From a virus (taxonomy: Duplodnaviria; Caudoviricetes): DNA of 64,000 nt. A program made the translations under genes and the position numbers. Below the pieces are notes generated by a model. The model did no database searches. It saw only the letters and a list, made by a program, of their open reading frames with translations, and was not told the origin of the DNA. The DNA lies in the IMG/VR virus record IMGVR_UViG_3300027986_000001, positions 1 through 64,000 of that record. One strand, given 5' to 3'. Positions 10,215 through 32,871 of the stretch are shown piece by piece. Positions within the stretch are counted from its first letter, which is position 1; each line of letters opens with the position of its first letter.

Positions 10215-11003
10215 GTGAATATGAAAACCTTAGCCGTTGTCTGTGGAAGCCCGGAAGAATTCAGCCACTGGAAGCGTGAAGCGTATCCTATCGCTGTGCG
10301 CTTTGGTTGCGATAGGACTTTCCCTGTCTGGTCCATGGAGAGCCTCGGTCGGCTGCGCGGTCTCCAGATCGACGACTTCACCTGCTACGGCACTTGGCAC
10401 CTGTTGCCCGATCGAGAGCGGATTATCGACAGACTGTTGGATATCTGCCCGGTGCGGCAAGGTCACTCCATCAACCCGGCTTTTCCCGCAACGCGCTGTG
10501 CTTTGATAAAAGAAGAGATCAACGAAAAGATCGAGACTAGCTTGGTTACCGGCAACGGATGGTGGACTTCTGCGTTCCCGGAGGCATACCCCGGCAAGGA
10601 CGATCCTGCCTCGGATGCTGGCACGTGGGAGATGAGGCTTCCTACTTATGGGAGCAGTTATGGCGTCTCGCCGCCCGGTTCAGTGATACAGATCGAGCCA
10701 AAGGCCAGCTTCCCACCGAGTCCGCGAGAAGCAGCTATCGAGGAATTGACCGCCATCGCCCGCCGCCTGTCGCAGGAGAATCTCAACGAACTCGTAGAGG
10801 TCGCCAAGACCATTCAGGCGCTGCATCCAATAAAGAAACAGGAGGAGGGCGAGTATCAGTTCAGCTTCAAAACGGCGCACCTCAAATGCGACGGCACGCA
10901 GTGGTGGGTAGGTGACAAACCAGTGGCCGAGTGGGTAGCCGGTCCCGATGACGAAAAATCCGTTCCCGTCTGGAGCCCGCCCAGCATAGAAGAAAACTCT
11001 TGA
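10215..11003 (+). CDS. mosaic hypothetical protein, LHP-motif paralog
   Basis: LVEVAKTIQALHP; contains LKCDGTQWWV shared with 30948..31514. Confidence 0.6.
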   Translation: MNMKTLAVVCGSPEEFSHWKREAYPIAVRFGCDRTFPVWSMESLGRLRGLQIDDFTCYGTWHLLPDRERIIDRLLDICPVRQGHSINPAFPATRCALIKEEINEKIETSLVTGNGWWTSAFPEAYPGKDDPASDAGTWEMRLPTYGSSYGVSPPGSVIQIEPKASFPPSPREAAIEELTAIARRLSQENLNELVEVAKTIQALHPIKKQEEGEYQFSFKTAHLKCDGTQWWVGDKPVAEWVAGPDDEKSVPVWSPPSIEENS

Positions 11004-11034
11004 CTCTTGACTTGTATCTCCGCATACTGAACCC

Positions 11035-11690: not shown

Positions 11691-11916
11691 GATCTCGCCG
11701 CTCTTGACTTCCTCGTCTTTCCGCCTCATACTTCATCCAACTGAGCCGCATCGCGAATACCCCCTAACACACCGAGGCGGCTACTCCTATCAGGGCGTGG
11801 AGATCACGATCCTCCGCGCCCTGAAAACAAAACTCTTGACTTTTGACTTGGCGGGAATTACTCTTGACGTGTCGGCAACAGCCGAACATCAAAATACACG
11901 AAAAGGAGGTTGTCTT

Positions 11917-12585
11917 ATGGCAACCAGCACCGCAACACCAAAGGCAGTTGTTTCAATTCCGGCCCCGAAGTTTGGGGAGGCCGAGTTCGAGATCATCGGG
12001 ACTGAGGTTTTAGTAATCCACAGGTTCTCCGCCAAAACCAAACAGCAAATGAAATCAAAGATGGAAGAAGGTAAAAGTGCGGGCAGCAAGAAGAACCGCG
12101 AGGCCACATCGACTGATGATTTGTACCAAGCGGCCCGGTACATCAGCCCTGAAGGGTGGGATGGATTTCACGCCGCATCAATCCGCAATGCAATGATAAG
12201 CGCCTGCCGCTTAGTGGGCTACAAGATGACTCTCGCAAAAATGAGCATCTTTGTTTTGGCGGACGGGCACGACGCAATCGAGCCTCAGATTCCACTGGTC
12301 CGCATCTATGGCGAGCCTAAAAAACAAGAGGACATGGCGCGCGTGGAAACCGGCCAGCCGTACGTGACGGTGCGTGCGGCGTACCATGACTGGAGCGCCA
12401 AGGTCCGCATTCGTTGGGACTCTGACCAGTTCAAGTTGGAGGATGTTAGCAATCTGCTTTCAAGAGTAGGATTGCAGGTAGGTCTATGTGAGGGCAGACC
12501 GGACTCCAAAAACTCCTGCGGTATGGGCTGGGGCCTATTCCGTATCAAGGGGAGTGAAGACAATAAATTAGAGGCAGCAGCGTGA
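11917..12585 (+). CDS. solo RAMP superfamily (Cas7/Csm3-like) protein, putative guide-RNA-binding effector
   Basis: AAGGAGG RBS; beta1 motif FEIIGTEVLVIH, GFHAASIRNAM (cf. RAMP iPgsslKGalR), C-terminal Gly-rich loop GLQVGLCEGRP...GMGWGLF; 222 aa. Confidence 0.7.
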   Translation: MATSTATPKAVVSIPAPKFGEAEFEIIGTEVLVIHRFSAKTKQQMKSKMEEGKSAGSKKNREATSTDDLYQAARYISPEGWDGFHAASIRNAMISACRLVGYKMTLAKMSIFVLADGHDAIEPQIPLVRIYGEPKKQEDMARVETGQPYVTVRAAYHDWSAKVRIRWDSDQFKLEDVSNLLSRVGLQVGLCEGRPDSKNSCGMGWGLFRIKGSEDNKLEAAA

Positions 12586-13008
12586 CAAATCCGACTATCA
12601 TCGCAGAATTGAAAAGGGTAGCCGCCGAACATGGCGGCTATCTCCGCCCGAAGGATGTTGTTAAGGCGGCCCGTGAGGAAACCTCGCCATTACACAGCCA
12701 GTTCACCTGGGATAACAATCTCGCCGCTGAAAAGTACCGCCTGCATCAAGCGCGGCAATTAATCTCGGTGGTGGTCGAGTACACGGGGCCTGAAATGAAT
12801 CAGATGAGCCGCGTGTTCGTCTCCTTGACTGAGAATCGGCGTGAGGCGGAAGGGTACATTGAAACCGCCGTCGCAATGTCTGACCCGAGAAGACGCGAAA
12901 GGCTTTTAAAAGGATGCGCTCTTAGAGCTGCGTGCGTTTCAAAAAAAGTATGCTGATCTTGAGCAGTTGGCTAAGGTTTTCGCCGCTTTGGATGACGTGG
13001 CGGCTTGA
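12582..13008 (+). CDS. small partner protein of the RAMP gene (L.P..VV.AA....SPLH..F.WD...AA..YRL.QAR.LI); 1-nt frameshift near 12908-12911
   Basis: GTGA overlap with RAMP stop; removing one A in TTTAAAAGG gives ...LLKDALLELRAFQKKYADLEQLAKVFAALDDVAA* ending 13008. Confidence 0.7.
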
Positions 13009-13632
13009 GTTCGGTTTGGTTCGGCTGGGCAGGTAGGGAGCGGCAAGGTGGGATGAGGCTCGTCCCGATCAAGGCAAGGTTCGGCAGGCGAGGGATGGTG
13101 GGTTATGTTAGGTTGCGGCGCGTAACGGGCTGTCTCGGTCGGTAGTGGGAGGCAAGGTTGGGCAGGAGCGGCCAGGGAGGGTCCGTTAAGCTGTGGAATA
13201 GCGGGGTGAGTTTTGGCAGGTGTGGCAATGAATGATCTGCCGGGGCGAGGAGGGATTTAGAGAGGTCTGGCAGGCGCGGACTTGTGTGGCAGGCATTTGG
13301 TCGGGATGGCAGCGGAATGTCCTGGAAGCGCAGGCTAGGGCTGGAATGGTCCGGGTTGGTATGGATAGGTGTTGCGGGCGATGGCAAGGAAAGGCCGGTA
13401 TGGAGGGGGCTGCAGGGGACAGGTCTGATGGGGGCAGTTGCGGCTAGGACTGGCTGGATTCGGTTTGGCGGGCCTGGACAGGATGGCCTCGGAGCGCCTG
13501 GGTCAGGCCCGGCCTGTATGTGGCGCGGCAGGCAAGGAAAGCTGGAGCTGGGTGCGTTGTTGTTGGCATGGAGTGGGAGGGCAGGCGAGGGATGGACAGG
13601 CGAGCAGTGGAATGGAAATGCAGGAGTGGAAA
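13009..13632 (+). ncRNA. main array of GGN-NN pentamer repeats, units delimited by GGCA(GG); putative guide RNAs
   Basis: 5-nt GG periodicity; GGCAGG at 13028, 13083, 13161, 13215, 13269, 13288, 13527, 13580; several units exactly 54 nt (10 pentamers + GGCA). Confidence 0.8.
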
Positions 13633-13644
13633 AAGGGAGGCGGA

Positions 13645-14460
13645 ATGAGTCCAGAACAAAACGTGAAAAAAGTTGCAATCAACACAATTAGCGTTGATCC
13701 AACGTTGCAAATCAGAGTCGATTTCGACACAGGTGTCGTCAAGGAGTACGCGGCAATCGTTGCGGACAGGGATATGGACCCTGTAACTCTCTTTGACACG
13801 GGAAAGGCGCTGCTACTTGCGGATGGAGCGCACAGAAGGGCGGCTTACATAAAGGCCGGTAAAACGGAAATCCCAGCCGTAACCGTCAAGGGCACGCACT
13901 CAGATGCACTGCGATATTCAATCCAGAAAAATTGCAGGCATGGCATCAAGGTCACGAACCAGGACAAGCGTCGAGCGGCCAGTTTGGCGGTTTTAGACGC
14001 CGATCTTGCCAAGTTGCCAGACGCGGAACTCGGAGAGCTGATCGGCGTGAGCGGCACCCTCGTTGCGGATTGCCGACGTGGAGAAACTCCAGCCGCAAAA
14101 CGCGAAAGAGCCGCAAGCAGAAAATCGAAGAACGGCCAAGGCCCGGCAGTGGTTAGCGTGACAGCGCATGAAAGGAGAAAAGTTGGCGAGACTCGACCGA
14201 CCAAGGCAATGTGCCTAAAGTCAATCGAGTCATGGACAAACGACAGCCTTGTCGATGAGGCGGATATTATTAAGCTGTTCGAGTCGGCCAAGGGCGAGTA
14301 CGTGTTCCTACCCAAAGAAGGCGGCGATTTAAAGGTCACGGTTGTCGGTAAGACGGGCCGGGCGCAGATCGCGGATATAAAAATGATCGTCAAAGACCTA
14401 AATTTTGAGGAGATCAAGCTGAAGTCGGAGAAGTTCGTGATATCAGCGGAGAAGGCATAA
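13645..14460 (+). CDS. ParB/Srx-like N-terminal domain protein with HTH
   Basis: LQIRV...V.EYA...PV.LF....LLADGAHR..A; N..HG...T..DKRRA; HTH DAELGELIGVSGTLV; GGGAGG RBS before ATG 13645. Confidence 0.8.
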   Translation: MSPEQNVKKVAINTISVDPTLQIRVDFDTGVVKEYAAIVADRDMDPVTLFDTGKALLLADGAHRRAAYIKAGKTEIPAVTVKGTHSDALRYSIQKNCRHGIKVTNQDKRRAASLAVLDADLAKLPDAELGELIGVSGTLVADCRRGETPAAKRERAASRKSKNGQGPAVVSVTAHERRKVGETRPTKAMCLKSIESWTNDSLVDEADIIKLFESAKGEYVFLPKEGGDLKVTVVGKTGRAQIADIKMIVKDLNFEEIKLKSEKFVISAEKA

Positions 14461-14476
14461 TGATTCACGGTCTCCT

Positions 14477-14554
14477 GGTGCGGCAGGCAAGGTGGGGCAA
14501 GGTAGGTTTGGGGCAGGATCGGTCCGGCGTGTAAGGGCAGGCGAGGCGCGGCAT
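14477..14554 (+). ncRNA. orphan pentamer array B (one full 10-pentamer unit 14486-14535 between GGCA delimiters)
   Basis: ggca ggcaa ggtgg ggcaa ggtag gtttg gggca ggatc ggtcc ggcgt gtaag ggca. Confidence 0.8.
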
Positions 14555-14602
14555 TCTCTTGACTTTTGCCTCGCTTGCCGTTAGCCTTGGCTTAACAAAA
14601 CT

Positions 14603-14911
14603 ATGGGGTCAACAACCAACCGATGGCAGTCGCCGGTCAGGCCGCGAGAGCTGCGCCGCATGCTGCGGGAGAAAGAGATCAAGATGGCCCCGATCCCGCC
14701 CATGCCCCCAGAGTACACGGACTACCGGCAGAAGCGTCTACGGTTTGCTGTTAGCTGTGCGGTCCTGTTCTTGAAAGGCAAAGACTACGAAGGCATAGCT
14801 CGAAAAGTCGGAATCCGGCGGTCGATCTCTAAACAAAACTTGCAACTCTATATTTCCAAGGGCGCGAAGTTTCTCATAGACAGGGGCTGTTTTATCGGGT
14901 TAAAGACATGA
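14603..14911 (+). CDS. basic protein, probable HTH DNA-binding
   Basis: GKDYEGIARKVG...SKQNLQLYISKG; promoter TTGACT 14559/TAGCCT 14582. Confidence 0.6.
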   Translation: MGSTTNRWQSPVRPRELRRMLREKEIKMAPIPPMPPEYTDYRQKRLRFAVSCAVLFLKGKDYEGIARKVGIRRSISKQNLQLYISKGAKFLIDRGCFIGLKT

Positions 14912-15396
14912 TCTGGAATAGCCTGCAGTCTCCGTGGTTCTGGGTGGCGATGGCGGTCATCGGCGGCATAGCCATCAGATCGGGCATATCCAAGGCCCTG
15001 TCCGCTTGGAGGAACTACCGGGACGACCTGATCTACAAGTTGCGGATGGATATCGAATCTCCCAAGAAGCCGCCGGAGCCGTCCGAGCCCGAGCAGTCTA
15101 ATATTGGACAGCCCGCCAACGGCCACAGCCCAGAGGACGACAAGATCCTACTGGCAATTCTGAACGGCCAGCGCGAGGGCTTACGGTTTCAGGCCGAGCA
15201 AATCAAACTACTGCGGCGACTGAATGGCTTGTTTCGCGGGGAGTCCTACGATGACGTGGATGACTCCCGAGCCACCGAGATTGAGGAGATTAACAACCTG
15301 ATGGAGCGCTATCAGATCCCGCGCCAGGAGGCTGAGGCGAGGGTGCGGGAGAAGCGGACGTACACGGCCAAGGATTTCGGCCTGGGAGAAAGATAG
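14908..15396 (+). CDS. membrane-anchored hypothetical protein
   Basis: N-terminal hydrophobic helix; ATGA overlap. Confidence 0.6.
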   Translation: MIWNSLQSPWFWVAMAVIGGIAIRSGISKALSAWRNYRDDLIYKLRMDIESPKKPPEPSEPEQSNIGQPANGHSPEDDKILLAILNGQREGLRFQAEQIKLLRRLNGLFRGESYDDVDDSRATEIEEINNLMERYQIPRQEAEARVREKRTYTAKDFGLGER

Positions 15397-16367
15397 TGGC
15401 TCTATCGCAGGCAAAACTAACTCGCATCATCGCGCGACGGATCTCTCGTTCCATGGGGGTAGACCAGGATGCGGCAATGGTCGTGGCTAACGAGATCCGG
15501 GAGGACATCAACGAACAGATTTGGATGGATTCTGAAGATGAAGGCAACGGCATCCGACCGATCACGCAAGGCCGGGAGCCAGAGCGCCCCACTGCCCCGC
15601 CGCCGCCAGCTAACATCATGGCCCCGGTCGAGCCGCAGCCCGTCAAGAGCGGCAAGTTGATCCTGACACCGGACGACCCTGAATTCAAGAAGCCCGATGG
15701 CCTGAAAGACACCAAGGTCCGATCGTTTCCCTTGAGGCGCGTTGCGCCAACCACGACGCCGACCAAGGCTCCAGCCCGTAAGTGGTGGTCGTCGGAAACG
15801 CTAATCCAGGCGCTCAGCGAAAATACCCCGGCTGAGATCCAATTCACGCCAGAGGGCAGCAAGAACGTCATCACGGCGGTACGCAACATCTTGAACCAGG
15901 AAGGCATGGACTGTGTGTACCTTGAATACGCCCACGCTGCCGCCAGCCGCGAACTAGGGAACATAGGGAGGGCGAGTGACGGTTCGCCTACTGGCGCTCC
16001 CAATCTTCCCGCCGTAGCCCGCGTGTGCTTCACCCTATACGACAAAGAGCTGCCGCTGCCCGAGTCTATGGAGTCGATCATGACGCAGCTAAGGGGCATG
16101 TATAAGCCAAGGCCGCAGACCCTAATCCCGGCACTGCCTCCCGATAGACCGCTACGAGTGGCTGACGCCGCGCCTGAGAACACTGCCCAAGAAGATACCG
16201 GGTTGATCTCTGGGTGGAACTCGGTAGGCCCGCGAGTGACTCTGGAAAGGCCGATACCGCTAAGTGACGGCAGTGTAGTCACGGAGGTTTCGGACGCTAC
16301 TCAGTTCGTAAAATCCCGAGTCAAGCAAGGCAATATCGACAACTCTCCGAAAATACCCCACCGCTAG
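15396..16367 (+). CDS. Pro-rich hypothetical protein
   Basis: 323 aa coupled ORF. Confidence 0.65.
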   Translation: MALSQAKLTRIIARRISRSMGVDQDAAMVVANEIREDINEQIWMDSEDEGNGIRPITQGREPERPTAPPPPANIMAPVEPQPVKSGKLILTPDDPEFKKPDGLKDTKVRSFPLRRVAPTTTPTKAPARKWWSSETLIQALSENTPAEIQFTPEGSKNVITAVRNILNQEGMDCVYLEYAHAAASRELGNIGRASDGSPTGAPNLPAVARVCFTLYDKELPLPESMESIMTQLRGMYKPRPQTLIPALPPDRPLRVADAAPENTAQEDTGLISGWNSVGPRVTLERPIPLSDGSVVTEVSDATQFVKSRVKQGNIDNSPKIPHR

Positions 16368-16592
16368 TTGTAAAATATTTTACAATTCCCTAGAATTGCG
16401 GCATGGCTATTCCCAAAGAAGACTTACGCGCATTTCTTCAAGACTGCACCGAACAGACCGAGCGCCCGGACTTAGCGGGCAGAGCCGCAGAGCTGCTAGG
16501 CAAGTTGGAGGAAAAAACCGCCAGCAATGAACCTGAACCGCAAGGCCCTCCGGGAGGGCAGGCCCACTAGCCGATTCGCCGGGTAACCATGT

Positions 16593-16967
16593 GTGGCGTT
16601 CGATCCCAAGGATACTGTCCAGCAACTCATGATGGCGCTGATCACGTCGCTGACGGGGCTAACAGGCTATGCCCTACGTAAGGCAGAGCGGGCCGAGCGT
16701 AAAGCAAAGCATTGCCCTCTTAATTTCGAACAGAGAATGGAAAAGCTAGAGGCCGACCTCTCCTCTTTCAGGCGAAATGAGGCCATGGAAGACGCCCGCT
16801 CGGAGCCGCAACTCATTGAGATTATTCGTCAATTGTCCGAGATAGAAGCAAAGGTTAATCGATCTCTCAGGCAGAATGACGAAACACACGGGCGTCTGGC
16901 CCGGTTAGAGAAATTCCGGGCGACGGTGCAGGATAAGTTCCCGGACGATCTTCCGGCTGGAGACTAG
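16593..16967 (+). CDS. TM + coiled-coil protein (holin/lysis accessory-like)
   Basis: Hydrophobic N-terminus then heptad repeats. Confidence 0.45.
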   Translation: MAFDPKDTVQQLMMALITSLTGLTGYALRKAERAERKAKHCPLNFEQRMEKLEADLSSFRRNEAMEDARSEPQLIEIIRQLSEIEAKVNRSLRQNDETHGRLARLEKFRATVQDKFPDDLPAGD

Positions 16968-17625
16968 GCAGCGACCAGTAAAACTTGCGAGTTGGTTTTA
17001 GGAATAGGCCCCACAGCGCGCAGCAGGCCGACTGCGCAATCCAGTATCCGGTATCCGTAGTTTGCCACGGGACAAGCCCACGAAACATGCCGGTACGATT
17101 ATCCAAGCACCCGGCAGCGGCCTGAAAACCCAGGAATAATAGCAGTGTCCAGAAGTGGACCGCCGTGTTGTGTTTCAAGGGCGTCCCTTGCTTCCATAGG
17201 AAATATCCCGCCGCCACGGCCCAGAGGAACATGGCTACCTGAATGTACTCCCTGAGTATCACGAACTGGTGGAACCCGGACCACGGCTCTCCGCTAACGA
17301 ACGCAATAAACACGGAGCAAAAAATGGCTAACAGGGAGAAACTGGACACTCCCACGAGAAGCCAGCGCATGCCCTCGCGCGTCATCCCTAGCGTTACTCG
17401 GTGAAATGCTTCTAGTAGCATGACACCTCGTCCAATCAGCAGGGCGAGTGTTGTCGCCACCCAAAAGCCGTTCCACCAGTCGGGGCTGTCCTTGTAAAAC
17501 GGGGCGACAGTCACCAGGGATGATGCGATCAGATACCCGTAAAATGCCGGGAAGTTTTTCCACCAGCGCAGGCGAGACAAGCGTACAAGCAGTGCTATCT
17601 GGCAGGCGAGAAAGATAATTCTCAT
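16867..17625 (-). CDS. multi-pass (~7 TM) membrane protein, counter-oriented
   Basis: Successive hydrophobic segments. Confidence 0.65.
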   Translation of the reverse strand: MRIIFLACQIALLVRLSRLRWWKNFPAFYGYLIASSLVTVAPFYKDSPDWWNGFWVATTLALLIGRGVMLLEAFHRVTLGMTREGMRWLLVGVSSFSLLAIFCSVFIAFVSGEPWSGFHQFVILREYIQVAMFLWAVAAGYFLWKQGTPLKHNTAVHFWTLLLFLGFQAAAGCLDNRTGMFRGLVPWQTTDTGYWIAQSACCALWGLFLKPTRKFYWSLPSLQPEDRPGTYPAPSPGISLTGPDARVFRHSA

Positions 17626-17692
17626 GTCTGCTATTATCCTCGCACGTCAAGCAGCAGTTGTAGTTCCTTTGTAAGAACCGCTACAATTCATC

Positions 17693-17995
17693 GTGCAGGA
17701 AACGGCTAATTCCATGTGGCAAGGTCTCGTAATAGCCAACTCTGCGGGCCTGTTTACCTTGTTCGGCTGGCTGATCGGCGTTACCTACGCAGCCGGACAA
17801 CGGGCCAAGCAGATGGACGTGAACACGGAAGCGATCAAGGAAATTCGGGAACGCGGATCGCCCGGAGTCCGCGAGCGATTCGATTCCATCAAAGAAAGGC
17901 TGGATGGTATCTCGCGAGAGCAATCCGCCCAGCGTAAAATTCTGGATCGCTTATCGGATCGGTCCTCGGCTCACGGCGTCATCCAGACGGACTAG
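17693..17995 (+). CDS. TM + coiled-coil protein (XhlA/holin-like)
   Basis: One TM followed by coiled coil. Confidence 0.45.
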   Translation: MQETANSMWQGLVIANSAGLFTLFGWLIGVTYAAGQRAKQMDVNTEAIKEIRERGSPGVRERFDSIKERLDGISREQSAQRKILDRLSDRSSAHGVIQTD

Positions 17996-18001
17996 AGAGA
18001 C

Positions 18002-18307
18002 ATGAAGGTAACAATCAAAATGAATATCCCAAGCGACCGAACCGAGCAGCACTTCTTGATGATGGTCGGGCTAATGCTCACCTTCTTCTTCACGCAGATA
18101 TTCATTGAGGGGATCATAGCCCTGAGGTGGGTATCGCCGGACAGTATGAGCCAAAGTTTAGCCATGTCTCACGACGCTTTTCTGACTTTCTTCGGACTAG
18201 CCGCCGGGATCTTTCATGGCATGGTGCCGCAGATTGCGGGCCGCGCCCCGTTCTTGGTTCCGCCGCAGCCCGCGCCGGAGCCCGAGAAACTCGAACCCGC
18301 TGCGTGA
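18002..18307 (+). CDS. 2-TM protein, putative holin
   Basis: Two hydrophobic helices, charged tail. Confidence 0.4.
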   Translation: MKVTIKMNIPSDRTEQHFLMMVGLMLTFFFTQIFIEGIIALRWVSPDSMSQSLAMSHDAFLTFFGLAAGIFHGMVPQIAGRAPFLVPPQPAPEPEKLEPAA

Positions 18308-18319
18308 TACTATCGCTCC

Positions 18320-18811
18320 GTGGCTAAGATTGTCCGTAACATAGGCGCAAGAAAGCGCCGCCGCTCCCTTCCCCCGGTGCCGGAGCCAATTCCGGATCTA
18401 GTGCTACCCGATAACCTCAACAAAACAAATATCACCGCCCGGTCGCTCCAAAAGGGTGCGTACCAGAAAAAGCTACTCCAGTTCTTTGCCCCGTACTTGT
18501 TACCCGATGCTTTTAACGCCCTGCGCCGCCTCATCCAGTCCGACAATATAGAGGCCGCCAAGAAGACGCTGGAAGCCTACGGCGTGCTCTCCGCGCCCAA
18601 GGGGGCTACGACTATCATTGCCCCGCAGTTCAACAACGAGAACAAGGCCGAGGCCATGGCCCAGGCCGCCGCCATAGCGGCCAAGAAGCAGGACGACGCC
18701 AAGGGAATCAGCGATTTCGAGAGTATGATCCGGTTAGTCGAGGAAGGGCAGAAGACGATCTTACTCCAGCCCGCCCAGTACGAGCCCACGCCCGAAGGCG
18801 CAGCCGAGTAG
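18320..18811 (+). CDS. terS: putative terminase small subunit
   Basis: Position directly before TerL; helical, 163 aa. Confidence 0.55.
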   Translation: MAKIVRNIGARKRRRSLPPVPEPIPDLVLPDNLNKTNITARSLQKGAYQKKLLQFFAPYLLPDAFNALRRLIQSDNIEAAKKTLEAYGVLSAPKGATTIIAPQFNNENKAEAMAQAAAIAAKKQDDAKGISDFESMIRLVEEGQKTILLQPAQYEPTPEGAAE

Positions 18812-18814
18812 TAT

Positions 18815-21046
18815 ATGGCGCGTGACGCCGGGATAGACGCCCTAGTCGAGTACTACGACCGCCATATTCCTGACCGCTTCGGATTCAAGCCGGAGGAGTG
18901 GGTACAGCTTCCGCAGGCGCAGCAAATCGCAATGCTAACCCCGCAGGAACGACAGGCGATATTCGAGCAAGTGCAACTCTGCAAGTCCAGCTTTGAATAC
19001 GCTGCGCGCAACTATTTCTGGTTGGTGAACAACGAATCAAAGGACCAACTCTTCAGTCTCTGGGAGAGCCAGTATCTGGTCCTAGAAACGATGCGTCGGA
19101 TTAAAGAACGCGGCAAGGCGCAGAAAATTTTCGTGATCAAGGCCCGCAGACTCGGATGTTCAACTTTGATCGAGGCCCTGATTGCCTGGAGGGCAATTTT
19201 CTTCCGCAACGTGTACGGAATCGTAATTTCAGTTGACGAGGACGATGCGGCCTACCTGTTCGGATTCATGCAGCACTTCTACGACAAACTGCCGTGGTGG
19301 ATGAAGCCGGAGATCTCGTCCCGCGAAATCAAAGGCGGTCTAATATTTGACAGAAAAGACCCAAGTTTACGTGCCGTAAATCCGGGAAATAACTCGGAGG
19401 TCAAAGTTCAGTATTCCACGCAGTTCTCTGGTGTCGGCCAGGGCCGCCGCGTAAGTGCGGCTCACATTAGCGAAATGAGTGACTACGAACAAAAGCGCGC
19501 TGAGGAGATCGTAATGGAGGATCTCACGCCAGCTATCCATCCTACGCCGGAAAACTTTGCCTTCATCGAAACAACCGGCAAGGGAACTGGCAATATGACT
19601 CACCGCCTATGGCGGGCGTCTGAAAAGTTGGCCGAACGGGCGGAATGGTATCCCTTGTTTCTTGCGTCATTCTTCGAGCACAGTCGAACGATATTCGTTC
19701 CTGATGAGTGGAAACCGCAGCGGCCAGAGTTGGCCATTCGCGAGCGAGTCCGAAAGGAATGGGTAAAGTGCAATCACTGTAATCAGTTTCAGCACGCCAT
19801 AGAAGATCGGGTGAAGATGCTGGATGCTACCTGCCCAATGTGCTTAAAGGGGAAAATGCTGGAGGTTATCCTGACCCCTGGTCAGCTTGGGTGGATGGAG
19901 GAGCGCAGGATTCAGGCCGAGGCCAACGGTCGTGAGGCGGTCAAGAAGTACAGGCAGGAATTTTCGATCTCGGCGGAGGAGAGCTTCCAGGTTAGCGGTT
20001 ATTCAGTTTTTGATGACCAGTGCTACGAGAAAGTCACGGAAACGATCGAAGACCCGGAGCATAATGCTTACGTAAAAGTCGGCCTGATTGGCAACCCAGA
20101 CGGTAAGTTCCACGGCTATAATCCCGACACCAAAAAGTGCTACGCCGAGGGCTGCACCGACGATCACCGCATGCTGTCGCCGATGGACGCGCTGTTCACG
20201 ATCTACCGCGATCCAGTTCCAGGCGCTGAATATTCTATCGGCTGCGACGTGTCCGAGGGGATCGGGGAAGACTATAGCGTTATCTTCGTGAACCGAATCG
20301 GGGGGCAGCATGCTCCGGATGAGGAGGTCGCCGTCTGGCGGGACAACTGGACCGACCCAAAGGCCGTATCGTTCTTCTGTAACGCGATTGGCCGCATGTA
20401 CAATGACGCCTTGATGGCTATCGAGTACAACCTCTACAACATTGTCGGCGACGACGTGCTGTACAAATACCAGTACCCCAATATCTACATCTGGAAAAAC
20501 AAAGAAAACCGCCACGGCGTTCTAACCCACAAATACCATTGGTGGACGAAGGCCGGGAGCAAGACGCTGCTCTACCAGACGGCGAGATCATGGCTCCGAT
20601 CCGGCGCGTGGATCATTCATTCCAAATTATTCCGCGACGAGATGACGACCTTTGTCAAAGAAGGTTTTGAGGAGAGAAACGCAAAACACGCCCAAGATCA
20701 GCACGATGATTTGCTTATGGCAGCAATGATCAGTCTCTACTGCCCCCATGAACTCGATACGCAGGAAGGCACGGGCAGAATACCTGTCCCGCAAATCGAG
20801 GACAACAATGCTCCCAAGGACTGGTTAATGCGCTGTGGTGCCTGCGGCGGGGAATGGGAGGCCGAGAGGCCGGACGTGTTTTACTCCTGCCCGCTGCCGG
20901 ATGAGGTAAATGGCGGCGTATGCGGGTCGATTCAGATCACCGGCAAGCGCAAGATTGAGCAGAGAAACGAAGTAAGGATAGACTTCCCGCCGGGGAGTGT
21001 TGAGGAAGCTGGCTCCAACGCTGAATTAAGTTGGAACCAGCTTTGA
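18815..21046 (+). CDS. terL: terminase large subunit
   Basis: Walker A VIKARRLGCST, Walker B AHISE, IETTGKG, nuclease IGCDVSEGIGEDYS, AIEYN, HDDLLMA. Confidence 0.95.
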   Translation: MARDAGIDALVEYYDRHIPDRFGFKPEEWVQLPQAQQIAMLTPQERQAIFEQVQLCKSSFEYAARNYFWLVNNESKDQLFSLWESQYLVLETMRRIKERGKAQKIFVIKARRLGCSTLIEALIAWRAIFFRNVYGIVISVDEDDAAYLFGFMQHFYDKLPWWMKPEISSREIKGGLIFDRKDPSLRAVNPGNNSEVKVQYSTQFSGVGQGRRVSAAHISEMSDYEQKRAEEIVMEDLTPAIHPTPENFAFIETTGKGTGNMTHRLWRASEKLAERAEWYPLFLASFFEHSRTIFVPDEWKPQRPELAIRERVRKEWVKCNHCNQFQHAIEDRVKMLDATCPMCLKGKMLEVILTPGQLGWMEERRIQAEANGREAVKKYRQEFSISAEESFQVSGYSVFDDQCYEKVTETIEDPEHNAYVKVGLIGNPDGKFHGYNPDTKKCYAEGCTDDHRMLSPMDALFTIYRDPVPGAEYSIGCDVSEGIGEDYSVIFVNRIGGQHAPDEEVAVWRDNWTDPKAVSFFCNAIGRMYNDALMAIEYNLYNIVGDDVLYKYQYPNIYIWKNKENRHGVLTHKYHWWTKAGSKTLLYQTARSWLRSGAWIIHSKLFRDEMTTFVKEGFEERNAKHAQDQHDDLLMAAMISLYCPHELDTQEGTGRIPVPQIEDNNAPKDWLMRCGACGGEWEAERPDVFYSCPLPDEVNGGVCGSIQITGKRKIEQRNEVRIDFPPGSVEEAGSNAELSWNQL

Positions 21047-21047
21047 G

Positions 21048-21117
21048 GGCACGAGCCATTTCGCGCCTGACCATTCCGTACTGGTCCTGTCCTACCCGCT
21101 TCGGTCCTCACCACGCC
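21048..21117 (-). ncRNA. orphan pentamer array C (14 pentamers)
   Basis: Minus strand: ggcgt ggtga ggacc gaagc gggta ggaca ggacc agtac ggaat ggtca ggcgc gaaat ggctc gtgcc; TATACT just upstream. Confidence 0.8.
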
Positions 21118-21176
21118 CGAAATCAGTATAGTACAAAACTCTTGACTTTGAGCAAAATGTTTTACATACTTCTCTC

Positions 21177-21743
21177 ATGCCAAAAACACTGATTCACACG
21201 CAAATCGAGTTGGAGTCAGAGCAGATTGAAAAGTTGACCAGTATGGTAGAAGAAGAGGCATCCGTGGCCGAGAAGGTAGGGGGGCTAGCCCAGACTGCTC
21301 TGACTGATCTAGCTAACGGCGGAATGATGTTAGAGCCAATCACGATGCGCGCTCTGGAGCAGTCCATTGGACAAGCCATCGAAGGGCAGGGCCAAATCCT
21401 TAGTTTGGTCGAGGCCGGTGCCGGTCAAGCAGACGGAAGGATGGTGCTAAAGTGGAGCATCGACCCAACGTACATGCCGCAATTGGAGGCAATGGCGACG
21501 TTCCAGGAGTGTTCGGTATTAGAACTTGCGCAGCGGACAATTGACACTTGCGTGGACCAGGGATGGGCTATCGGGGATGTGCAGCCGATGCCGGAGCGCG
21601 TGCTGATGTCCAAGGAAGACAAGTCGGCCATAGAGCAGGTGCTGGGCGGCGCGTTCACTAACGGGACAGAATTGTCCCAGCTACTCAAGGTCGCCCTCGG
21701 CATGACCTCACCCTTCACCGAGGAGCCACTGGCGGCGAAGTAG
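21177..21743 (+). CDS. hypothetical protein
   Basis: Leaderless promoter TTGACT 21142/CATACT 21165. Confidence 0.7.
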   Translation: MPKTLIHTQIELESEQIEKLTSMVEEEASVAEKVGGLAQTALTDLANGGMMLEPITMRALEQSIGQAIEGQGQILSLVEAGAGQADGRMVLKWSIDPTYMPQLEAMATFQECSVLELAQRTIDTCVDQGWAIGDVQPMPERVLMSKEDKSAIEQVLGGAFTNGTELSQLLKVALGMTSPFTEEPLAAK

Positions 21744-21851
21744 TCCAATATTAGACAAGCAGGGCGATGAGCTATCTGGATAAAACGCAAGGGCCGATCG
21801 TAGGCCACCGCGCCTTTTTCGGGAGGCGCGGGCTACGACCAAGACCCCCGG

Positions 21852-22139
21852 ATGTTGGGCGCTGCAAATAATGCTATCGGCTCCGGGATGTCGGGCATGC
21901 AACAGGCTCAAGCGTACCAAGGATTCCGCACCTCAATAGGGCTGTTCGGCTCTTTGTCAGTCAGCAGCACATCAGACCTATCTGCTGTCCAGCATCGTCT
22001 TGATCCAAGGATCGAGAAGCTGGTTAAGATGGCCGAAAACGCCAGCGATACGGCGCTGGAAGGTATCCTGGAAACGGCTGAAGTAATCAATACGCTTCAC
22101 CCCAAGATCGAGAAAGGCGGACTAGATGCAGCTTCCTGA
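21852..22139 (+). CDS. hypothetical protein, LHP-motif paralog (true start may be near 21768 with a T-run frameshift)
   Basis: ILETAEVINTLHP. Confidence 0.5.
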   Translation: MLGAANNAIGSGMSGMQQAQAYQGFRTSIGLFGSLSVSSTSDLSAVQHRLDPRIEKLVKMAENASDTALEGILETAEVINTLHPKIEKGGLDAAS

Positions 22140-22314
22140 TGGCGTAGAGTTGTGGACCATCGAAGGTCCTCAAGGTGACCGCCTGATTTTCACGTCGGGC
22201 GGAAGATACGTCGGATTCATTACGGTAGGCTGTGATCTATCGCCGGAGGCCGTGGTCCTACTTGCGCAGCAGGGCATAGAGCAGGACTGGGACGAGATGC
22301 AGGGGGAGATCTAG
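22126..22314 (+). CDS. small hypothetical protein
   Basis: ORF track. Confidence 0.45.
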   Translation: MQLPDGVELWTIEGPQGDRLIFTSGGRYVGFITVGCDLSPEAVVLLAQQGIEQDWDEMQGEI

Positions 22315-22331
22315 CGGCCCGGTGTTGACGT

Positions 22332-22425
22332 GGCAGGAGTGGCGAGGTCAGGATAGGTTAGGTCCGGTCAGGCGCGGCGCAGGGAGGAGAGATATGGCAT
22401 GTTCCGGTCTGGCAGGGCAGGAAGG
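22332..22425 (+). ncRNA. orphan pentamer array D (15 pentamers after GGCA)
   Basis: ggca ggagt ggcga ggtca ggata ggtta ggtcc ggtca ggcgc ggcgc aggga ggaga gatat ggcat gttcc ggtct ggcag. Confidence 0.82.
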
Positions 22426-22433
22426 GAAAATGC

Positions 22434-22832
22434 GTGCCGGTATTTGAGCATCAGTGTAACTCTTGCGGAAGGGTGGCCGAGCATTATTACGGTCACCCGC
22501 CGGAGGTGAATCCGCCATGTGAGATTTGCGGCGAGCCGACAGAGCGTCTACTTAGCGCATTTAATTCCCCGTTCACCGGAATCATATCCTCCCGCTACAT
22601 CGACCGTTCGATCAAAGGCTCCGAGTCCGCTAGTGATGGGCATTGGGCTTGGGAGCGCAACACTCCAGACAAAAAGCCAAGGGCTCGGTTTATCAGTTCA
22701 TGGCAGGAGCAGCGGGACTTCTGTAAATCTGAAGGCTTAATCAACCCCCGTGAATGCGGCAATAACATCCAGCCGCGCGATGACGGCAAGGGGCTCCAGA
22801 ACTCGGTCGGGATGCCGGGGTGCGAAGTCTAG
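22434..22832 (+). CDS. FmdB-family zinc-ribbon protein
   Basis: MP.FE..C..CG...E........CEICG....RL.S. Confidence 0.8.
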   Translation: MPVFEHQCNSCGRVAEHYYGHPPEVNPPCEICGEPTERLLSAFNSPFTGIISSRYIDRSIKGSESASDGHWAWERNTPDKKPRARFISSWQEQRDFCKSEGLINPRECGNNIQPRDDGKGLQNSVGMPGCEV

Positions 22833-22919: not shown

Positions 22920-24791
22920 GTGTTCGCCCCAAGGCCATCCTTGGTACGGCCCAAGTCTGGGACTACAGACATAGGTGACTCGTACGCCAAAAAAATGGTG
23001 GACTGGCGCGATTCGCTTATTCAGCAAGCCTCGACTGAATGGCAGGCCGCCAGATCGTTACAGGAAATTGGTCTATTTATAGACTATCTCTCCGGGAAAA
23101 ATTGGTGGGGCGAAAATCGTCCGCAGTGGCGGTCAAGCGTAGTTGACAACTACCTTGCCGACCAGCGCCGCGAAGCCCTGGCCTCCCTAACTTCCACCCG
23201 CCCCGCCTTCGATGTTTCCTCAACCGTGGAAGCCTACAAGGACCAAGGGAAGATCACCAACGACTACATCAAGCACACCTGGGTCGATGACGACCTAGAC
23301 CTGAAGTTGGTCGAATGGATCGACCATGCTTTATTCGGAACGGGGTTTTGGAAGATCACCTGCTACGAGCCGGGCATCTTTGAGATAACCGCCCACGGGC
23401 TGGATGAGGTCATTCCAGTGATGATGCGCAACGATCTCCAGACCGCCGCCGCCGTAATCTACCGCACCTATCAAAATTTGGACTACTTTATCGGCAAGTT
23501 TGGGCGCGATGCCTGCGAGGGACTGCAGCGCTATGCGGTGCAGCTTAGCACCTCACAGAAGCCGACCAAGTACGCCCGGCCTGACAGTATTCCTGAGTAC
23601 GTCTGGAATCCAATGTCGCCAGCCATGAAGGCGCGGATGAGCAGGCGCAACGGACCGCCGCCGCCGAACTACTCGCCCGTTTCGCCGTTCATCTCCCTCG
23701 AACTGATGGAGATATACTCCGACGACTGGCACTACAACGACACCGACCACGCTTGGCTGATTAAGCACCCGGATCTCGATGTTGACGAGCACAACTATCA
23801 CTACATCGTGCCGCCCAAGGCGCGGCTGTTCCCGCGTAAGCGCCTTACCGTATTCGCCGGAGACAAGGTGATGTACGACGGGCCAGCACCGTTCTGGCAC
23901 GGGCTCTACCCGTTCGTCATGTTGCAACTGAACCCGTGTGTTTGGTCGCCCGGAGGAATCTCCAAATACCGCGATATCCTGCCACTTAACATGCTAGTCA
24001 ACCGGATCGTGGCCGGATTCGATGAGAACATCATGCAGGCACTGAACCAGACCACAATCTCCAAACGCGGCGCGATCGATCCGGTGTCTTGGGAGCGGTT
24101 CATCCCCGGCAAGCCGAATCAGAAATTGCTCATGAACCCCACGGGAGATCCGGTGCGCGACCTCCGTCGTCTCGACCCTCCGATAATCCCGGCGTACGTT
24201 GCTGAGTCGCTACGATACGCGATCGACACAATCAAGAAGCGGTCCGGATCGCTGGATATATCCGGCCTTGCCCGCAAAAAACAGGTGCCGGGCGGAGACG
24301 CTATCGAGAACATGCGAGACGCGATGTCGAGCCCCTTTCAACTCGAAGGGCGCTACGTCGAGGCCGCACTAAAGCGCGCGGGCATACAGGCGGTCAGCCA
24401 CGTTTTTCAGTTCACCACGCTGGAGCGCCGCTTACAGGTTCTTGGGCCGGACGGGCAGACCGAACAGGACTATCAGCCGCCATACGGGAGCATGAGCATG
24501 ATGAGCAGTCCCAAGGAAGATCACTGGAAAAAGTTCCCATTCAAGATCGCTCCGGGGTCGATGCACAGCGCATCCAAGTTCCAGAGAAAATCGGAAGCAA
24601 TCGTATTGAGACGGCAAGGAGATCTCAGTATGCAGGGCCTGTATGAGTTGGCTGAGGTCCCTCTGTCTTATGAGATAGAAAAAACGCGACTAATGCAGGA
24701 ACACAAAGAGGGCATCGGACCGCAGCCGAAAAAGGCAGCGGCGGGTGCTCCACGTACCTCGCGCTCCCAGCGCACGGGGTCACCAATCTGA
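22920..24791 (+). CDS. portal protein
   Basis: 623 aa after TerL; ALFGTGFWK, YDGP.PFWHG.YPF motifs of podovirus-type portals. Confidence 0.85.
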   Translation: MFAPRPSLVRPKSGTTDIGDSYAKKMVDWRDSLIQQASTEWQAARSLQEIGLFIDYLSGKNWWGENRPQWRSSVVDNYLADQRREALASLTSTRPAFDVSSTVEAYKDQGKITNDYIKHTWVDDDLDLKLVEWIDHALFGTGFWKITCYEPGIFEITAHGLDEVIPVMMRNDLQTAAAVIYRTYQNLDYFIGKFGRDACEGLQRYAVQLSTSQKPTKYARPDSIPEYVWNPMSPAMKARMSRRNGPPPPNYSPVSPFISLELMEIYSDDWHYNDTDHAWLIKHPDLDVDEHNYHYIVPPKARLFPRKRLTVFAGDKVMYDGPAPFWHGLYPFVMLQLNPCVWSPGGISKYRDILPLNMLVNRIVAGFDENIMQALNQTTISKRGAIDPVSWERFIPGKPNQKLLMNPTGDPVRDLRRLDPPIIPAYVAESLRYAIDTIKKRSGSLDISGLARKKQVPGGDAIENMRDAMSSPFQLEGRYVEAALKRAGIQAVSHVFQFTTLERRLQVLGPDGQTEQDYQPPYGSMSMMSSPKEDHWKKFPFKIAPGSMHSASKFQRKSEAIVLRRQGDLSMQGLYELAEVPLSYEIEKTRLMQEHKEGIGPQPKKAAAGAPRTSRSQRTGSPI

Positions 24792-31949: not shown

Positions 31950-32064
31950 TTTTCCTCCGCCATAGCCCGGTCTCGTTCCCTCCAGAGCGGGGCCGGGCAC
32001 CCTGTAAAATATTAGACAAATCTTGACTCTTGACTTTGGGGTTCATCGGCCACATACTAACCGC

Positions 32065-32838
32065 ATGAGCACACCCAAAGAAGGTATCGGCGATCGTATG
32101 AAGCGTAGCTACGAGGACCGCTACCGTATCCTGTTGCCGCGTCGTACCTACACGATCATTCGAATCGGCGGAAGGGCATTCCATGCTTTTACTCGTCAGT
32201 ATGAAAAACCGTATGACGCCCGGCTCGCCGCAGACATGGACCGCGCTGCGGTAGCGGTATGTGAGGACGCGCAAGGCGTCCAGTTCGCTTACGGGCAATC
32301 CGACGAATACAGTTTTTTGTTGACGGACTTCGCACAGTTGGCCACGGAGACGTGGTTCGACGGTAATCTGCAAAAGGTGTGCTCAATCGTGGCCTCTATA
32401 TTCACCGCCGAGTTCATGCGCTACTTTTCCGGAGAGTGTAGACGCGCTCATTTCGATTGCCGTGTATTCGTTATCCCTGATCCAATCGAGGTAGAGAACT
32501 ATTTCATCTGGAGACAGCAGGATGCTACGCGCAATGCAATTCTGGCGCTGGCGCAATCCGAGTTTCCCCCCAAGCAAATTCACGGACTCGGCTGTGACGA
32601 GTTGCAAGAAAAACTGTTCCGCGAGCGCGGCATTAACTTCAACGACAGGTCGGCGGAAGAAAAACGGGGTAGGGTTGTGATTTACAAGGTTCTTGGCTCT
32701 GCGGAGCCCCTACGCGGTTGGCTGGTAGACCGCAATATCCCCATCTTCACCGCAGAGCGGGACTATTTGATTCGCAATATCCCACAAATGGAGACGAGGC
32801 CTATTTTGTCCGCTGCTGTGAATTCTCTTAACTCTTGA
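32065..32838 (+). CDS. thg1: tRNA(His) guanylyltransferase Thg1-like protein
   Basis: GDRMK.YE, IRIGG.AFH.FT, YGQSDEYS, WFDG..QK..S, FDCRVF, NYFIWRQQDA.RN. Confidence 0.92.
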   Translation: MSTPKEGIGDRMKRSYEDRYRILLPRRTYTIIRIGGRAFHAFTRQYEKPYDARLAADMDRAAVAVCEDAQGVQFAYGQSDEYSFLLTDFAQLATETWFDGNLQKVCSIVASIFTAEFMRYFSGECRRAHFDCRVFVIPDPIEVENYFIWRQQDATRNAILALAQSEFPPKQIHGLGCDELQEKLFRERGINFNDRSAEEKRGRVVIYKVLGSAEPLRGWLVDRNIPIFTAERDYLIRNIPQMETRPILSAAVNSLNS

Positions 32839-32871
32839 CTCCCGCCTCGTTAGGCCGTACACTGTTCGTGC

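What the first reader, a model, noticed from the sequence alone, without database searches (positions are those of the whole stretch)
14477..22520. Three of three stand-alone guides sit beside the gene whose homolog they encode: RNA-guided allele competition?
Every orphan array lies within ~70-350 nt of the gene segment it resembles, always in sense-codon phase whichever strand the guide is on, and always imperfectly. Inference: guides are cis-linked to a resistant self allele and target the homologous allele of co-infecting relatives. That would be an RNA-programmed analogue of marker exclusion by free-standing homing endonucleases, several of which this genome also carries. Alternatives are tuned autoregulation (guide B matches self 15/16 just after the start codon of an HTH-like gene) or local generation of guides from neighbouring sequence, which would hint at the acquisition mechanism.
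Basis: inference. Interest (0 to 1): 0.85.

Follow-up and report, generated by a model that had tools for sequence, protein, structure and literature searches.

The report
Phage guide RNAs beside their immune alleles
Three short repeat arrays in this phage are stand-alone guide RNAs of the recently described VIPR system, and each sits next to the phage's own diverged copy of the gene that it targets in a related phage, an arrangement like a poison-antidote or homing element that the VIPR papers I could search do not mention.

Summary
The 99.9-kb phage genome holds only four GGNNN pentamer arrays. One is a 640-nt array next to a Vipr (RAMP) gene. The other three are stand-alone arrays: B 14477-14556, C 21046-21127 (minus strand) and D 22322-22432.

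These are vrRNAs of a VIPR system, described in 2026 bioRxiv preprints. In that system the last two bases of each GGYNN unit pair with DNA, and every third target base, the codon wobble position, is skipped.

Decoded this way, B, C and D match the neighbouring genes only imperfectly: 16/20, 18/28 and 19/30. They match the orthologous genes of the closest relative, L001 (TerL 81% identical), much better: 19/20, 20/24 and 24/28. L001 lacks all three arrays. Each match is the unique best hit in a 700-kb pool searched on both strands.

L001 in turn carries a solo vrRNA whose best hit is this phage's vipr gene.

Two unrelated phage families show the same pattern. In one, the array-free relative matches 20/20.

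The system itself is already known. What appears new is that each guide sits beside the phage's own diverged, probably insensitive allele. Silencing, exclusion and co-transfer of guide and allele remain untested.

The parts
11917..12585 (+). vipr gene (222 aa, RAMP/Cas7-like effector that would load the guides)
   Evidence: It matches phrog_4652. A profile of 25 homologues hits only PDB 36pp 'SUSP1 Vipr protein', E=6.8e-11. The AF2 model has pLDDT 83, and its top Foldseek hits are all Csm3/Cmr4/Cas7-type RAMPs. Homologues lie next to arrays in 31 IMG/VR loci that were found by DNA pattern alone.
12582..13008 (+). vap-like accessory gene (phrog_15946), with a frameshift near 12905-12915
   Evidence: It matches phrog_15946 at E=7e-15. 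Homologues lie beside Vipr and arrays in 21 loci. The C-terminal peptide, read in the other frame (12913-13008), is conserved in these homologues and contiguous in them.
13003..13640 (+). main vrRNA array A: about 128 GGNNN units in blocks of 6-14 units, offset by 4-nt GGCA-type steps (a 'staggered' array)
   Evidence: No significant target was found in the phage's own genome or in five relatives' loci.
14477..14556 (+). stand-alone vrRNA B: GGCA, then a 10-unit guide at 14486-14535, then GGCA and 3 more units
   Evidence: It matches 19/20 NN to L001 6821-6850, the unique best hit in the pool.
14612..14641 (+). own, partly diverged copy of B's target: codons 4-13 of the 102-aa gene 14603-14911, just downstream of a TTGACT-N17-TAGCCT promoter-like site
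   Evidence: It matches 16/20 NN, with all mismatches in the 5' four units. L001 reads N-G-N-I where this phage reads T-T-N-R.
21046..21127 (-). stand-alone vrRNA C, read on the minus strand: 12-14-unit guide running from 21117 down to 21048. It is an insertion of about 90 nt between the TerL stop codon and the next promoter, compared with L001
   Evidence: It matches 20/24 NN (21/28 over 14 units) to L001 12557-12598, the unique best hit.
21459..21500 (+). own diverged copy of C's target: codons 95-108 of the 188-aa gene 21177-21743
   Evidence: It matches 18/28 NN. This window is the second most diverged of 175 windows between this phage and L001.
22322..22432 (+). stand-alone vrRNA D: GGCA, then a 15-unit guide at 22336-22410, then GGCA and 3 more units
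   Evidence: It matches 24/28 NN to L001 13612-13653, the unique best hit. It also scores 16 against L002 (P=0.02).
22476..22520 (+). own diverged copy of D's target: codons 15-29 of the zinc-ribbon gene 22434-22832
   Evidence: It matches 19/30 NN. The gene has a weak Pfam Zn_ribbon_8 match. It is too diverged from L001 to give a blastn alignment.

Best explanation
B, C and D are stand-alone vrRNA genes that serve the phage's own VIPR system: Vipr at 11917-12585, a vap-like gene, and the staggered array A.

Each guide has 10-14 GGH-NN units. Under the published code (NN pairs, every third target base is skipped), each specifies a 30-42-bp, wobble-skipping site in the gene next door. The site reads that way in related phages that lack the guide. 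The phage's own copy carries non-synonymous changes that bring the match down to, or below, the 80% level that the VIPR papers use to call a target. Each locus is therefore a pair: a guide and a (probably) insensitive allele.

Inferred from the published VIPR mechanism: Vipr filaments loaded with these guides bind the sensitive allele of a co-infecting, superinfecting or resident relative as an R-loop triplex and block transcription there.

Inferred from the anatomy: tight linkage (66-342 nt) has two possible uses. It keeps guide and immune allele together when related phages recombine, so the guide does not end up in a genome it would silence. It could also let both be copied together into the rival, as in intronless homing.

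The conflict runs both ways. The relative L001 has a solo vrRNA in place of the VIPR locus, and that vrRNA targets this phage's vipr gene.
For: Shown here:
- The effector is a Vipr homologue, and the arrays have VIPR anatomy.
- Only unit positions 4-5 with a 1-nt skip give outlier scores.
- B, C and D hit L001 at the orthologous codons at 19/20, 20/24 and 24/28. Each is the unique top hit in a 700-kb pool searched on both strands, and 0 of 300 shuffles reached the score.
- L001 lacks arrays at all three sites.
- The phage's own alleles match at 16/20, 18/28 and 19/30.
- The target windows are among the most diverged between the two phages: rank 2 of 175 for g188 and 6 of 93 for g102. The g188-ZnR block is an island of low identity between TerL and portal.
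- L001's solo vrRNA has its best hit in this phage's vipr gene, in frame, 20/24 with 7 perfect units.
- The pattern recurs elsewhere. For the L078 guide, the own allele matches 17/20 and the array-free relative L207 matches 20/20. For L039 the figures are 15/20 and 18/20. Of 40 isolated guides in unrelated contigs, 5 have neighbour matches at p<=0.01, where 0.4 are expected.

From the literature:
- The 1-nt skip code, dsDNA binding, transcriptional repression and targeting of rival phages (bioRxiv 10.64898/2026.04.26.720920).
- The filament and R-loop triplex structure (10.64898/2026.04.26.720927).
- Solo vrRNAs whose self-match is lower than their non-self match (10.64898/2026.10.15.759431).
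Against: - Only one close relative (L001) could be examined, so co-inheritance of guide and allele is untested.
- B matches its own gene at exactly the 80% threshold, and perfectly over its 3' six units, so its own allele may not be fully insensitive.
- No expression data could be obtained.
- The vap-like gene is frameshifted, so the system may be impaired.
- In a mixed infection, proteins made from the resistant genome could complement a silenced rival in trans. Plain repression therefore does not obviously give exclusion. A cis-acting effect or a lysogen/superinfection setting is needed, and neither is shown.
- None of the L001 matches is perfect, so the true intended targets may be other, unsampled alleles.
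Confidence: 0.7

Rival explanations
1. Tuned autoregulation: the guides bind the phage's own neighbouring genes through deliberately imperfect matches and set their expression level.
For: B matches its own gene 16/20 (80%), with 15/16 over the 3' eight units. The site lies about 15-45 nt downstream of a promoter-like TTGACT-N17-TAGCCT. The cryo-EM preprint describes R-loop growth towards the 5' edge of the guide and stable 7-10-subunit intermediates.
Against: C and D match their own genes at only 63-68%, with scattered mismatches. That is below the 80% used to call targets. All three guides match L001 better than self, and so do the L078 and L039 guides. A regulator would be expected to match its own target best.
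Confidence: 0.1
2. Footprint of guide birth: new vrRNAs are made locally from the adjacent coding sequence by an unknown acquisition process. Adjacency is then historical rather than selected, and the own gene diverged afterwards.
For: Adjacency holds in 3 of 3 stand-alone guides and recurs in other phages. The VIPR preprints describe no adaptation mechanism.
Against: No known process turns 3-nt codons into 5-nt units while dropping the wobble base. The guides are closer to L001's alleles than to the phage's own alleles, so the own allele must still have changed under pressure or been replaced. That is the same escape logic as in the best explanation. In L078 a whole VIPR cassette, not only a guide, sits beside the matched gene, which looks like insertion rather than local synthesis.
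Confidence: 0.15
3. Decoys: the stand-alone vrRNAs exist to soak up or misdirect a rival phage's Vipr protein, as shown for satellite-encoded solo vrRNAs.
For: Solo vrRNAs with anti-VIPR activity are described in 10.64898/2026.10.15.759431.
Against: This phage has its own intact vipr gene. The guides have specific, high-scoring targets in a relative that appears VIPR-null at the homologous locus.
Confidence: 0.04
4. Chance resemblance between G-rich intergenic repeats and nearby coding sequence.
For: C and D are not significant against the phage's own genome under a trimming-free score.
Against: They give unique top hits at orthologous codons in L001, with 0 of 300 shuffles reaching the score. 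Only the published decoding rule works. The pattern is replicated in other families.
Confidence: 0.01

Closest known systems
VIPR (Viral Interference Programmable Repeat) systems: Vipr + Vap + vrRNA (bioRxiv 10.64898/2026.04.26.720920 and 10.64898/2026.04.26.720927)
   Same: It has a RAMP-like Vipr gene with a small accessory gene and GGY/NN-type pentamer arrays of about 9-16 units. The 1-nt skip aligns to codon wobble positions. The targets lie in rival phages. Array A fits the 'staggered array' architecture mentioned in that paper.
   Different: The third unit position is A, C or T rather than strictly a pyrimidine. No conserved 3' tail or pseudoknot was seen. Three guides lie 1.9-9.8 kb away from the VIPR operon, each beside the phage's own homologue of its target. 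That paper reports only that no self hit reaches 80% NN. It does not mention sub-threshold matches in neighbouring genes.
Solo / orphan vrRNAs of satellites and VIPR-null phages (bioRxiv 10.64898/2026.10.15.759431)
   Same: These are vrRNAs without an adjacent vipr gene, and their self-match is lower than their match to rivals. Some target relatives' vipr genes. L001's solo vrRNA does exactly that to this phage.
   Different: The published solo vrRNAs sit where vipr-vap1 was deleted, or in satellites. They aim at vipr, other vrRNAs, satellites or host REP decoys. Here the guides are in a VIPR-positive genome, dispersed among morphogenesis genes, and aimed at the allelic form of the very gene they flank. 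That paper defines 'solo' as more than 20 kb from vipr, so B, C and D would not have been counted.
Free-standing homing endonucleases and intronless homing / localized marker exclusion (T4 Seg and Mob enzymes; from general knowledge)
   Same: A selfish determinant sits within a few hundred bp of its recognition site in a neighbouring gene. Its own allele is protected by sequence differences, and the allele of a related co-infecting phage is sensitive.
   Different: Recognition is by RNA rather than protein. No DNA cleavage is known for VIPR types with DNA-binding Vaps. Co-conversion of the guide into the rival genome is hypothetical.
Class 1 CRISPR-Cas (Cas7 backbone filaments)
   Same: The effector has a RAMP fold, and the best structural matches are Csm3/Cmr4/Cas7-11. 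Pairing in the filament is periodic and interrupted.
   Different: There are no repeat-spacer array, no cas1/cas2 and no other cas genes. The guide unit is 5 nt with 2 informative bases.

Membership tests
VIPR system | Vipr protein: a small RAMP homologue | tested here: met
   A profile of 25 homologues hits PDB 36pp 'SUSP1 Vipr protein' at E=6.8e-11, the only hit. The top Foldseek hits of the AF2 model are all Cas7-type RAMPs.
VIPR system | vrRNAs made of tandem pentamers with a fixed GGY and a variable NN, about 9-16 units | tested here: met
   GG is fixed at 91% and 79%, and positions 4-5 are near uniform. Position 3 is A 25%, C 28%, T 33% and G 14%, so it is GGH rather than GGY. The guides have 10-15 units.
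VIPR system | Target recognition by NN with one skipped base, aligned to the codon wobble position | tested here: met
   Skips of 0, 2 and 3 nt, and other pairs of unit positions, give background scores. The 1-nt skip gives scores of 16-20 for four guides. All hits are in codon phase. This is a computational test only.
VIPR system | Accessory vap gene next to vipr | tested here: inconclusive
   A phrog_15946 gene follows vipr, and its homologues accompany Vipr and arrays in 21 loci. Its Vap class was not determined, and the gene is frameshifted here.
VIPR system | Conserved 3' tail or handle after the repeat tract | tested here: inconclusive
   No shared tail was seen. B and D are bracketed by GGCA and followed by 3 further units, and C is not. 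This is compatible with the 'staggered' architecture noted in the preprint.
VIPR system | vrRNAs are expressed and bound by Vipr; the complex binds dsDNA and represses transcription | not testable with these tools
No wet-lab data are available.
VIPR system | No self-target at >=80% NN identity | tested here: inconclusive
   C and D match self at 63-68%. B matches at exactly 80% (16/20).
Intronless-homing / marker-exclusion element (functional analogy only) | The element lies beside its recognition site, its own allele differs, and the rival's allele matches | tested here: met
   The distances are 66-342 nt. Own alleles match at 63-80% and L001's at 83-95%.
Intronless-homing / marker-exclusion element (functional analogy only) | DNA break or stall at the sensitive allele, followed by co-conversion of the element and flanking markers | not testable with these tools
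   This needs mixed-infection genetics.
CRISPR-Cas | Repeat-spacer array plus a cas adaptation or effector gene set | tested here: not met
   No CRISPR-like repeats were found, and no cas domains were found in the neighbouring genes.

The most novel reading that the evidence does not exclude
A vrRNA together with its linked insensitive allele may be an RNA-guided homing or gene-drive cassette. In this reading, Vipr binding at the sensitive allele of a co-infecting relative stalls transcription or replication there. Recombinational repair then copies the adjacent guide and the resistant allele into the rival genome. VIPR guides would then spread like free-standing homing endonuclease genes. This would also explain why guides, and whole VIPR cassettes as in L078, sit next to the sequence they target.
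Probability: 0.25. Interest if true: 0.85.

Novelty: new variant of a known kind. Interest (0 to 1): 0.62.

Why it matters
VIPR was described only in 2026. How its guides arise, spread and avoid self-targeting is still open.

This phage shows a regular arrangement that the preprints I could read do not mention: searches for 'allele', 'ortholog', 'linked' and 'adjacent' found nothing relevant. A guide lies within a few hundred bases of the phage's own diverged copy of its target, while an array-free relative keeps the better-matching copy and strikes back at vipr.

If this is general, three things follow:
- Self/non-self discrimination in VIPR is partly a matter of linkage.
- Guide-plus-allele pairs behave as selfish poison-antidote or homing-like units.
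- There is a simple rule for predicting targets: look next door, in relatives.

It also makes the idea directly testable with two natural phage genomes that target each other.

Tried and rejected
Searches that found little or nothing:
- Megablast of the region against GenBank phages found no match. By TerL tblastn, the nearest isolate phages are under 25% identical.
- A single-protein TerL scan of IMG/VR found nothing. The alignment-based scan gave 80 loci, but only distant relatives. Almost none of them has arrays near TerL.
- The metagenome scan with g188 gave one short locus.
- Protein searches with g188 and the zinc-ribbon gene returned only the phage itself plus one homologue each: the L001-type protein for g188, and a 39%-identical protein on a 1-kb contig for the zinc-ribbon gene.
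- L124 is the same phage, 100% identical over the region. The contig for P0122, a TerL variant differing at 2 of 743 residues, is not on record.
- Contigs with Vipr 74-75% identical to this one (L035, L115) are not relatives of this phage, so the module moves horizontally.
- No close relatives were found for the L005 example.

Analyses that gave no signal:
- The guide blocks of array A have no significant match in the phage's own genome or in L001, L002, L003, L122 or L123.
- My L138 solo vrRNA test used the wrong register and was not repeated, so its target is unknown.

Ideas considered and dropped:
- A TRAP-like protein-binding site, G-quadruplex arrays, a ParB centromere, or a decayed microsatellite. 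These were dropped once the Vipr association and the code were established.
- A third 'coding' base in each unit, that is, translation of the pentamers. Reading the base after GG as the wobble base gave synonymous codons for B. For C it gave a stop codon, and for D several non-synonymous codons (my own reading).
Full report
WHAT IS THERE

The window is the first 64 kb of a circularly assembled 99,896-bp phage genome with 56% G+C. TerL lies at 18815-21046 and the portal gene at 22920-24791.

Pentamers with GG in a fixed 5-nt phase occur at only four places in the whole genome:
- A, 13003-13640, about 128 units.
- B, 14477-14556.
- C, 21046-21127, read on the minus strand.
- D, 22322-22432.

Across 159 five-nt units, G is at position 1 in 91% and at position 2 in 79%. 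Positions 3-5 are close to uniform, with G somewhat avoided at positions 3 and 5. This is therefore not a decayed microsatellite.

B and D have the same build: GGCA, then the guide units (10 and 15), then GGCA and three further units. Array A is cut into blocks of 6-14 units by similar 4-nt steps.

CHECKING THE CLAIMED RESEMBLANCE

The last two bases of each unit were aligned to codon positions 1 and 2 of a target, and the third base was skipped.

Those limits could have been chosen to fit, so I repeated the test with whole intergenic arrays, a local score and shuffled unit order. Only B remained significant against the phage's own genome.

The decisive data came from a relative. L001 (ENA ERZ25039458, contig_91158) has a TerL 81% identical to this phage's and the same gene order. 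It has no array after its ParB gene, none after TerL and none before the zinc-ribbon gene. Yet the three guides hit L001 exactly at the orthologous codons:
- B: 19/20.
- C: 20/24 (21/28 over 14 units).
- D: 24/28.

The local scores are 18, 16 and 20-22, against next-best scores of 10-12. None of 300 shuffles reached them. In a 700-kb pool of this genome plus 40 related loci, searched on both strands, each is still the unique top hit.

Other skip lengths (0, 2, 3) and other pairs of unit positions give only background scores.

WHAT IT IS

A pattern scan for ten phased GGs found at least 118 IMG/VR contigs with such arrays, at 24-71% G+C. In 31 of them a homologue of the 222-aa gene 11917-12585 lies beside the array. 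In 21 a homologue of the next gene does so too.

A literature search then showed that this system was described in 2026 as VIPR. A RAMP-like Vipr protein polymerises on vrRNAs made of GGY/NN pentamers. The NN bases pair with dsDNA while every third target base is skipped, usually the wobble base. Binding represses transcription, and natural targets lie in rival phages and satellites. Cryo-EM shows one protomer per unit and an R-loop triplex. A later preprint describes solo vrRNAs on satellites and on VIPR-null phages, some aimed at relatives' vipr genes.

Membership was tested here. A profile of the 222-aa family hits only 'SUSP1 Vipr protein' (PDB 36pp), E=6.8e-11. The AF2 model has pLDDT 83, and its structural neighbours are Csm3/Cmr4/Cas7-type RAMPs. 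Array A fits the 'staggered' architecture mentioned in the first preprint.

WHAT IS SPECIFIC TO THIS FINDING

B, C and D lie 1.9, 8.5 and 9.7 kb downstream of vipr, outside the VIPR operon. Each is 66-342 nt from the phage's own homologue of its target, always in the sense direction.

The own alleles differ from the guides by non-synonymous changes. For example, T-T-N-R in this phage stands where L001 has N-G-N-I and guide B specifies N/K-G-N/K-S/R. Own alleles match at 80%, 64-67% and 63-68% NN. L001's alleles match at 95%, 83% and 86%.

Between the two phages, the target windows are among the most diverged stretches of their genes: rank 2 of 175 for g188 and 6 of 93 for g102, but unremarkable for the very diverged zinc-ribbon gene. 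The g188-to-zinc-ribbon block is an island of low identity between TerL (75% nt) and portal (76% nt).

Where this phage has vipr, vap and array A (11867-13633), L001 has 115 nt holding one solo vrRNA. The best hit of that vrRNA in the whole pool is this phage's vipr gene, in frame, 20/24 with seven consecutive perfect units. The two lineages therefore aim at each other.

IS IT GENERAL?

Among 40 isolated guides in unrelated IMG/VR loci, five have a match within 600 nt at shuffle p<=0.01, where 0.4 are expected.

Two of these could be followed to relatives.
- L078 (41% G+C). The vrRNA upstream of a VIPR cassette lies 44 nt after a 311-aa gene. It matches that gene 17/20 over its first ten units. 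The 87%-identical relative L207 has no array and matches 20/20.
- L039. The own allele matches 15/20 in the core, and the array-free relative L234 matches 18/20.

The self-match test has low power, since C and D would fail it. The true share of guides with this arrangement is therefore unknown.

HOW IT MOST LIKELY WORKS

Shown here: the anatomy, the code, the better match to the array-free relative, and the reciprocal targeting.

Taken from the preprints: Vipr-vrRNA filaments bind matching dsDNA and block transcription.

Inferred:
- B, C and D are transcribed from the GG strand. B and D would be parts of plus-strand transcripts. C would need a minus-strand promoter, and I could find only a weak candidate; the consensus scan did not flag one.
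- They load onto the phage's Vipr and silence sensitive alleles in related genomes.
- The phage's own alleles escape.

Adjacency is not needed for silencing in trans, so it calls for its own explanation. The most economical one is linkage. In phages that recombine freely with relatives, a guide that is separated from its insensitive allele would land in a genome that it silences. A stronger version is homing-like co-conversion, which is stated under the novel case.

Weak points:
- There is only one close relative.
- B's own site sits at the 80% threshold.
- The vap-like gene is frameshifted.
- There are no expression data.
- Simple repression of a rival's gene could be complemented in trans during co-infection.

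VERDICT

The element belongs to a known, very recent family. The placement of each guide next to the phage's own diverged copy of its target appears to be new and is testable.

Noticed in passing
window 12900-13008: The vap-like gene (phrog_15946) changes frame near 12905-12915, at the run TTTTAAAAGG. The conserved C-terminal peptide continues in another frame to the stop at 13006-13008, right where array A begins. An independent assembly (L124) is identical, so this is either a real frameshift or programmed shift, or a shared homopolymer error.
   Followed up: partly
L001 5629-5688 versus window 12349-12384: The VIPR-null relative carries a single solo vrRNA exactly where this phage has vipr, vap and array A. 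Its best target in a 700-kb pool is this phage's vipr gene (codons T-G-Q-P-Y-V-T perfect).
   Followed up: yes
Vipr homologues are detectable beside 31 of them, and the Vipr most similar to this phage's (74-75%) sits in unrelated phages.
   Followed up: partly
L078 2330-3020 and L207: A whole VIPR cassette (promoter, vrRNA, vipr) sits 44 nt after a gene that its first vrRNA matches 17/20. The array-free relative L207 matches 20/20.
   Followed up: yes
L138/L139 12396-12470: A distant family member has a stand-alone 14-unit vrRNA about 400 nt after TerL, followed by a clear intrinsic terminator hairpin. My target search used the wrong register and was not repeated.
   Followed up: no
   Followed up: partly
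window 10986-11029, 11822-11865, 21128-21155, 32009-32059, 32830-32864: A promoter box AAAACTCTTGACT-N17-(C/T)ATACT recurs at the heads of operons. The same box is found in L001, which suggests that both phages use the same host RNA polymerase.
   Followed up: no
window 364-515: There are 12.7 tandem copies of a 12-nt unit (GGCAGCCCCTGC, 92% matches), unrelated to the pentamer arrays. It probably encodes a 4-residue peptide repeat on one strand.
   Followed up: no
L001 13555-13963: The zinc-ribbon gene of L001 aligns to this phage's protein in two pieces in different frames, so it is either split or frameshifted there.
   Followed up: no
window 13645-14460: The gene flanked by arrays A and B is a ParB-like protein (phrog_1033, with an N-terminal DGAHRR motif). 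It is conserved next to the VIPR site in L001, L002, L122 and L123 whether or not arrays are present, so it is probably not part of the system.
   Followed up: partly
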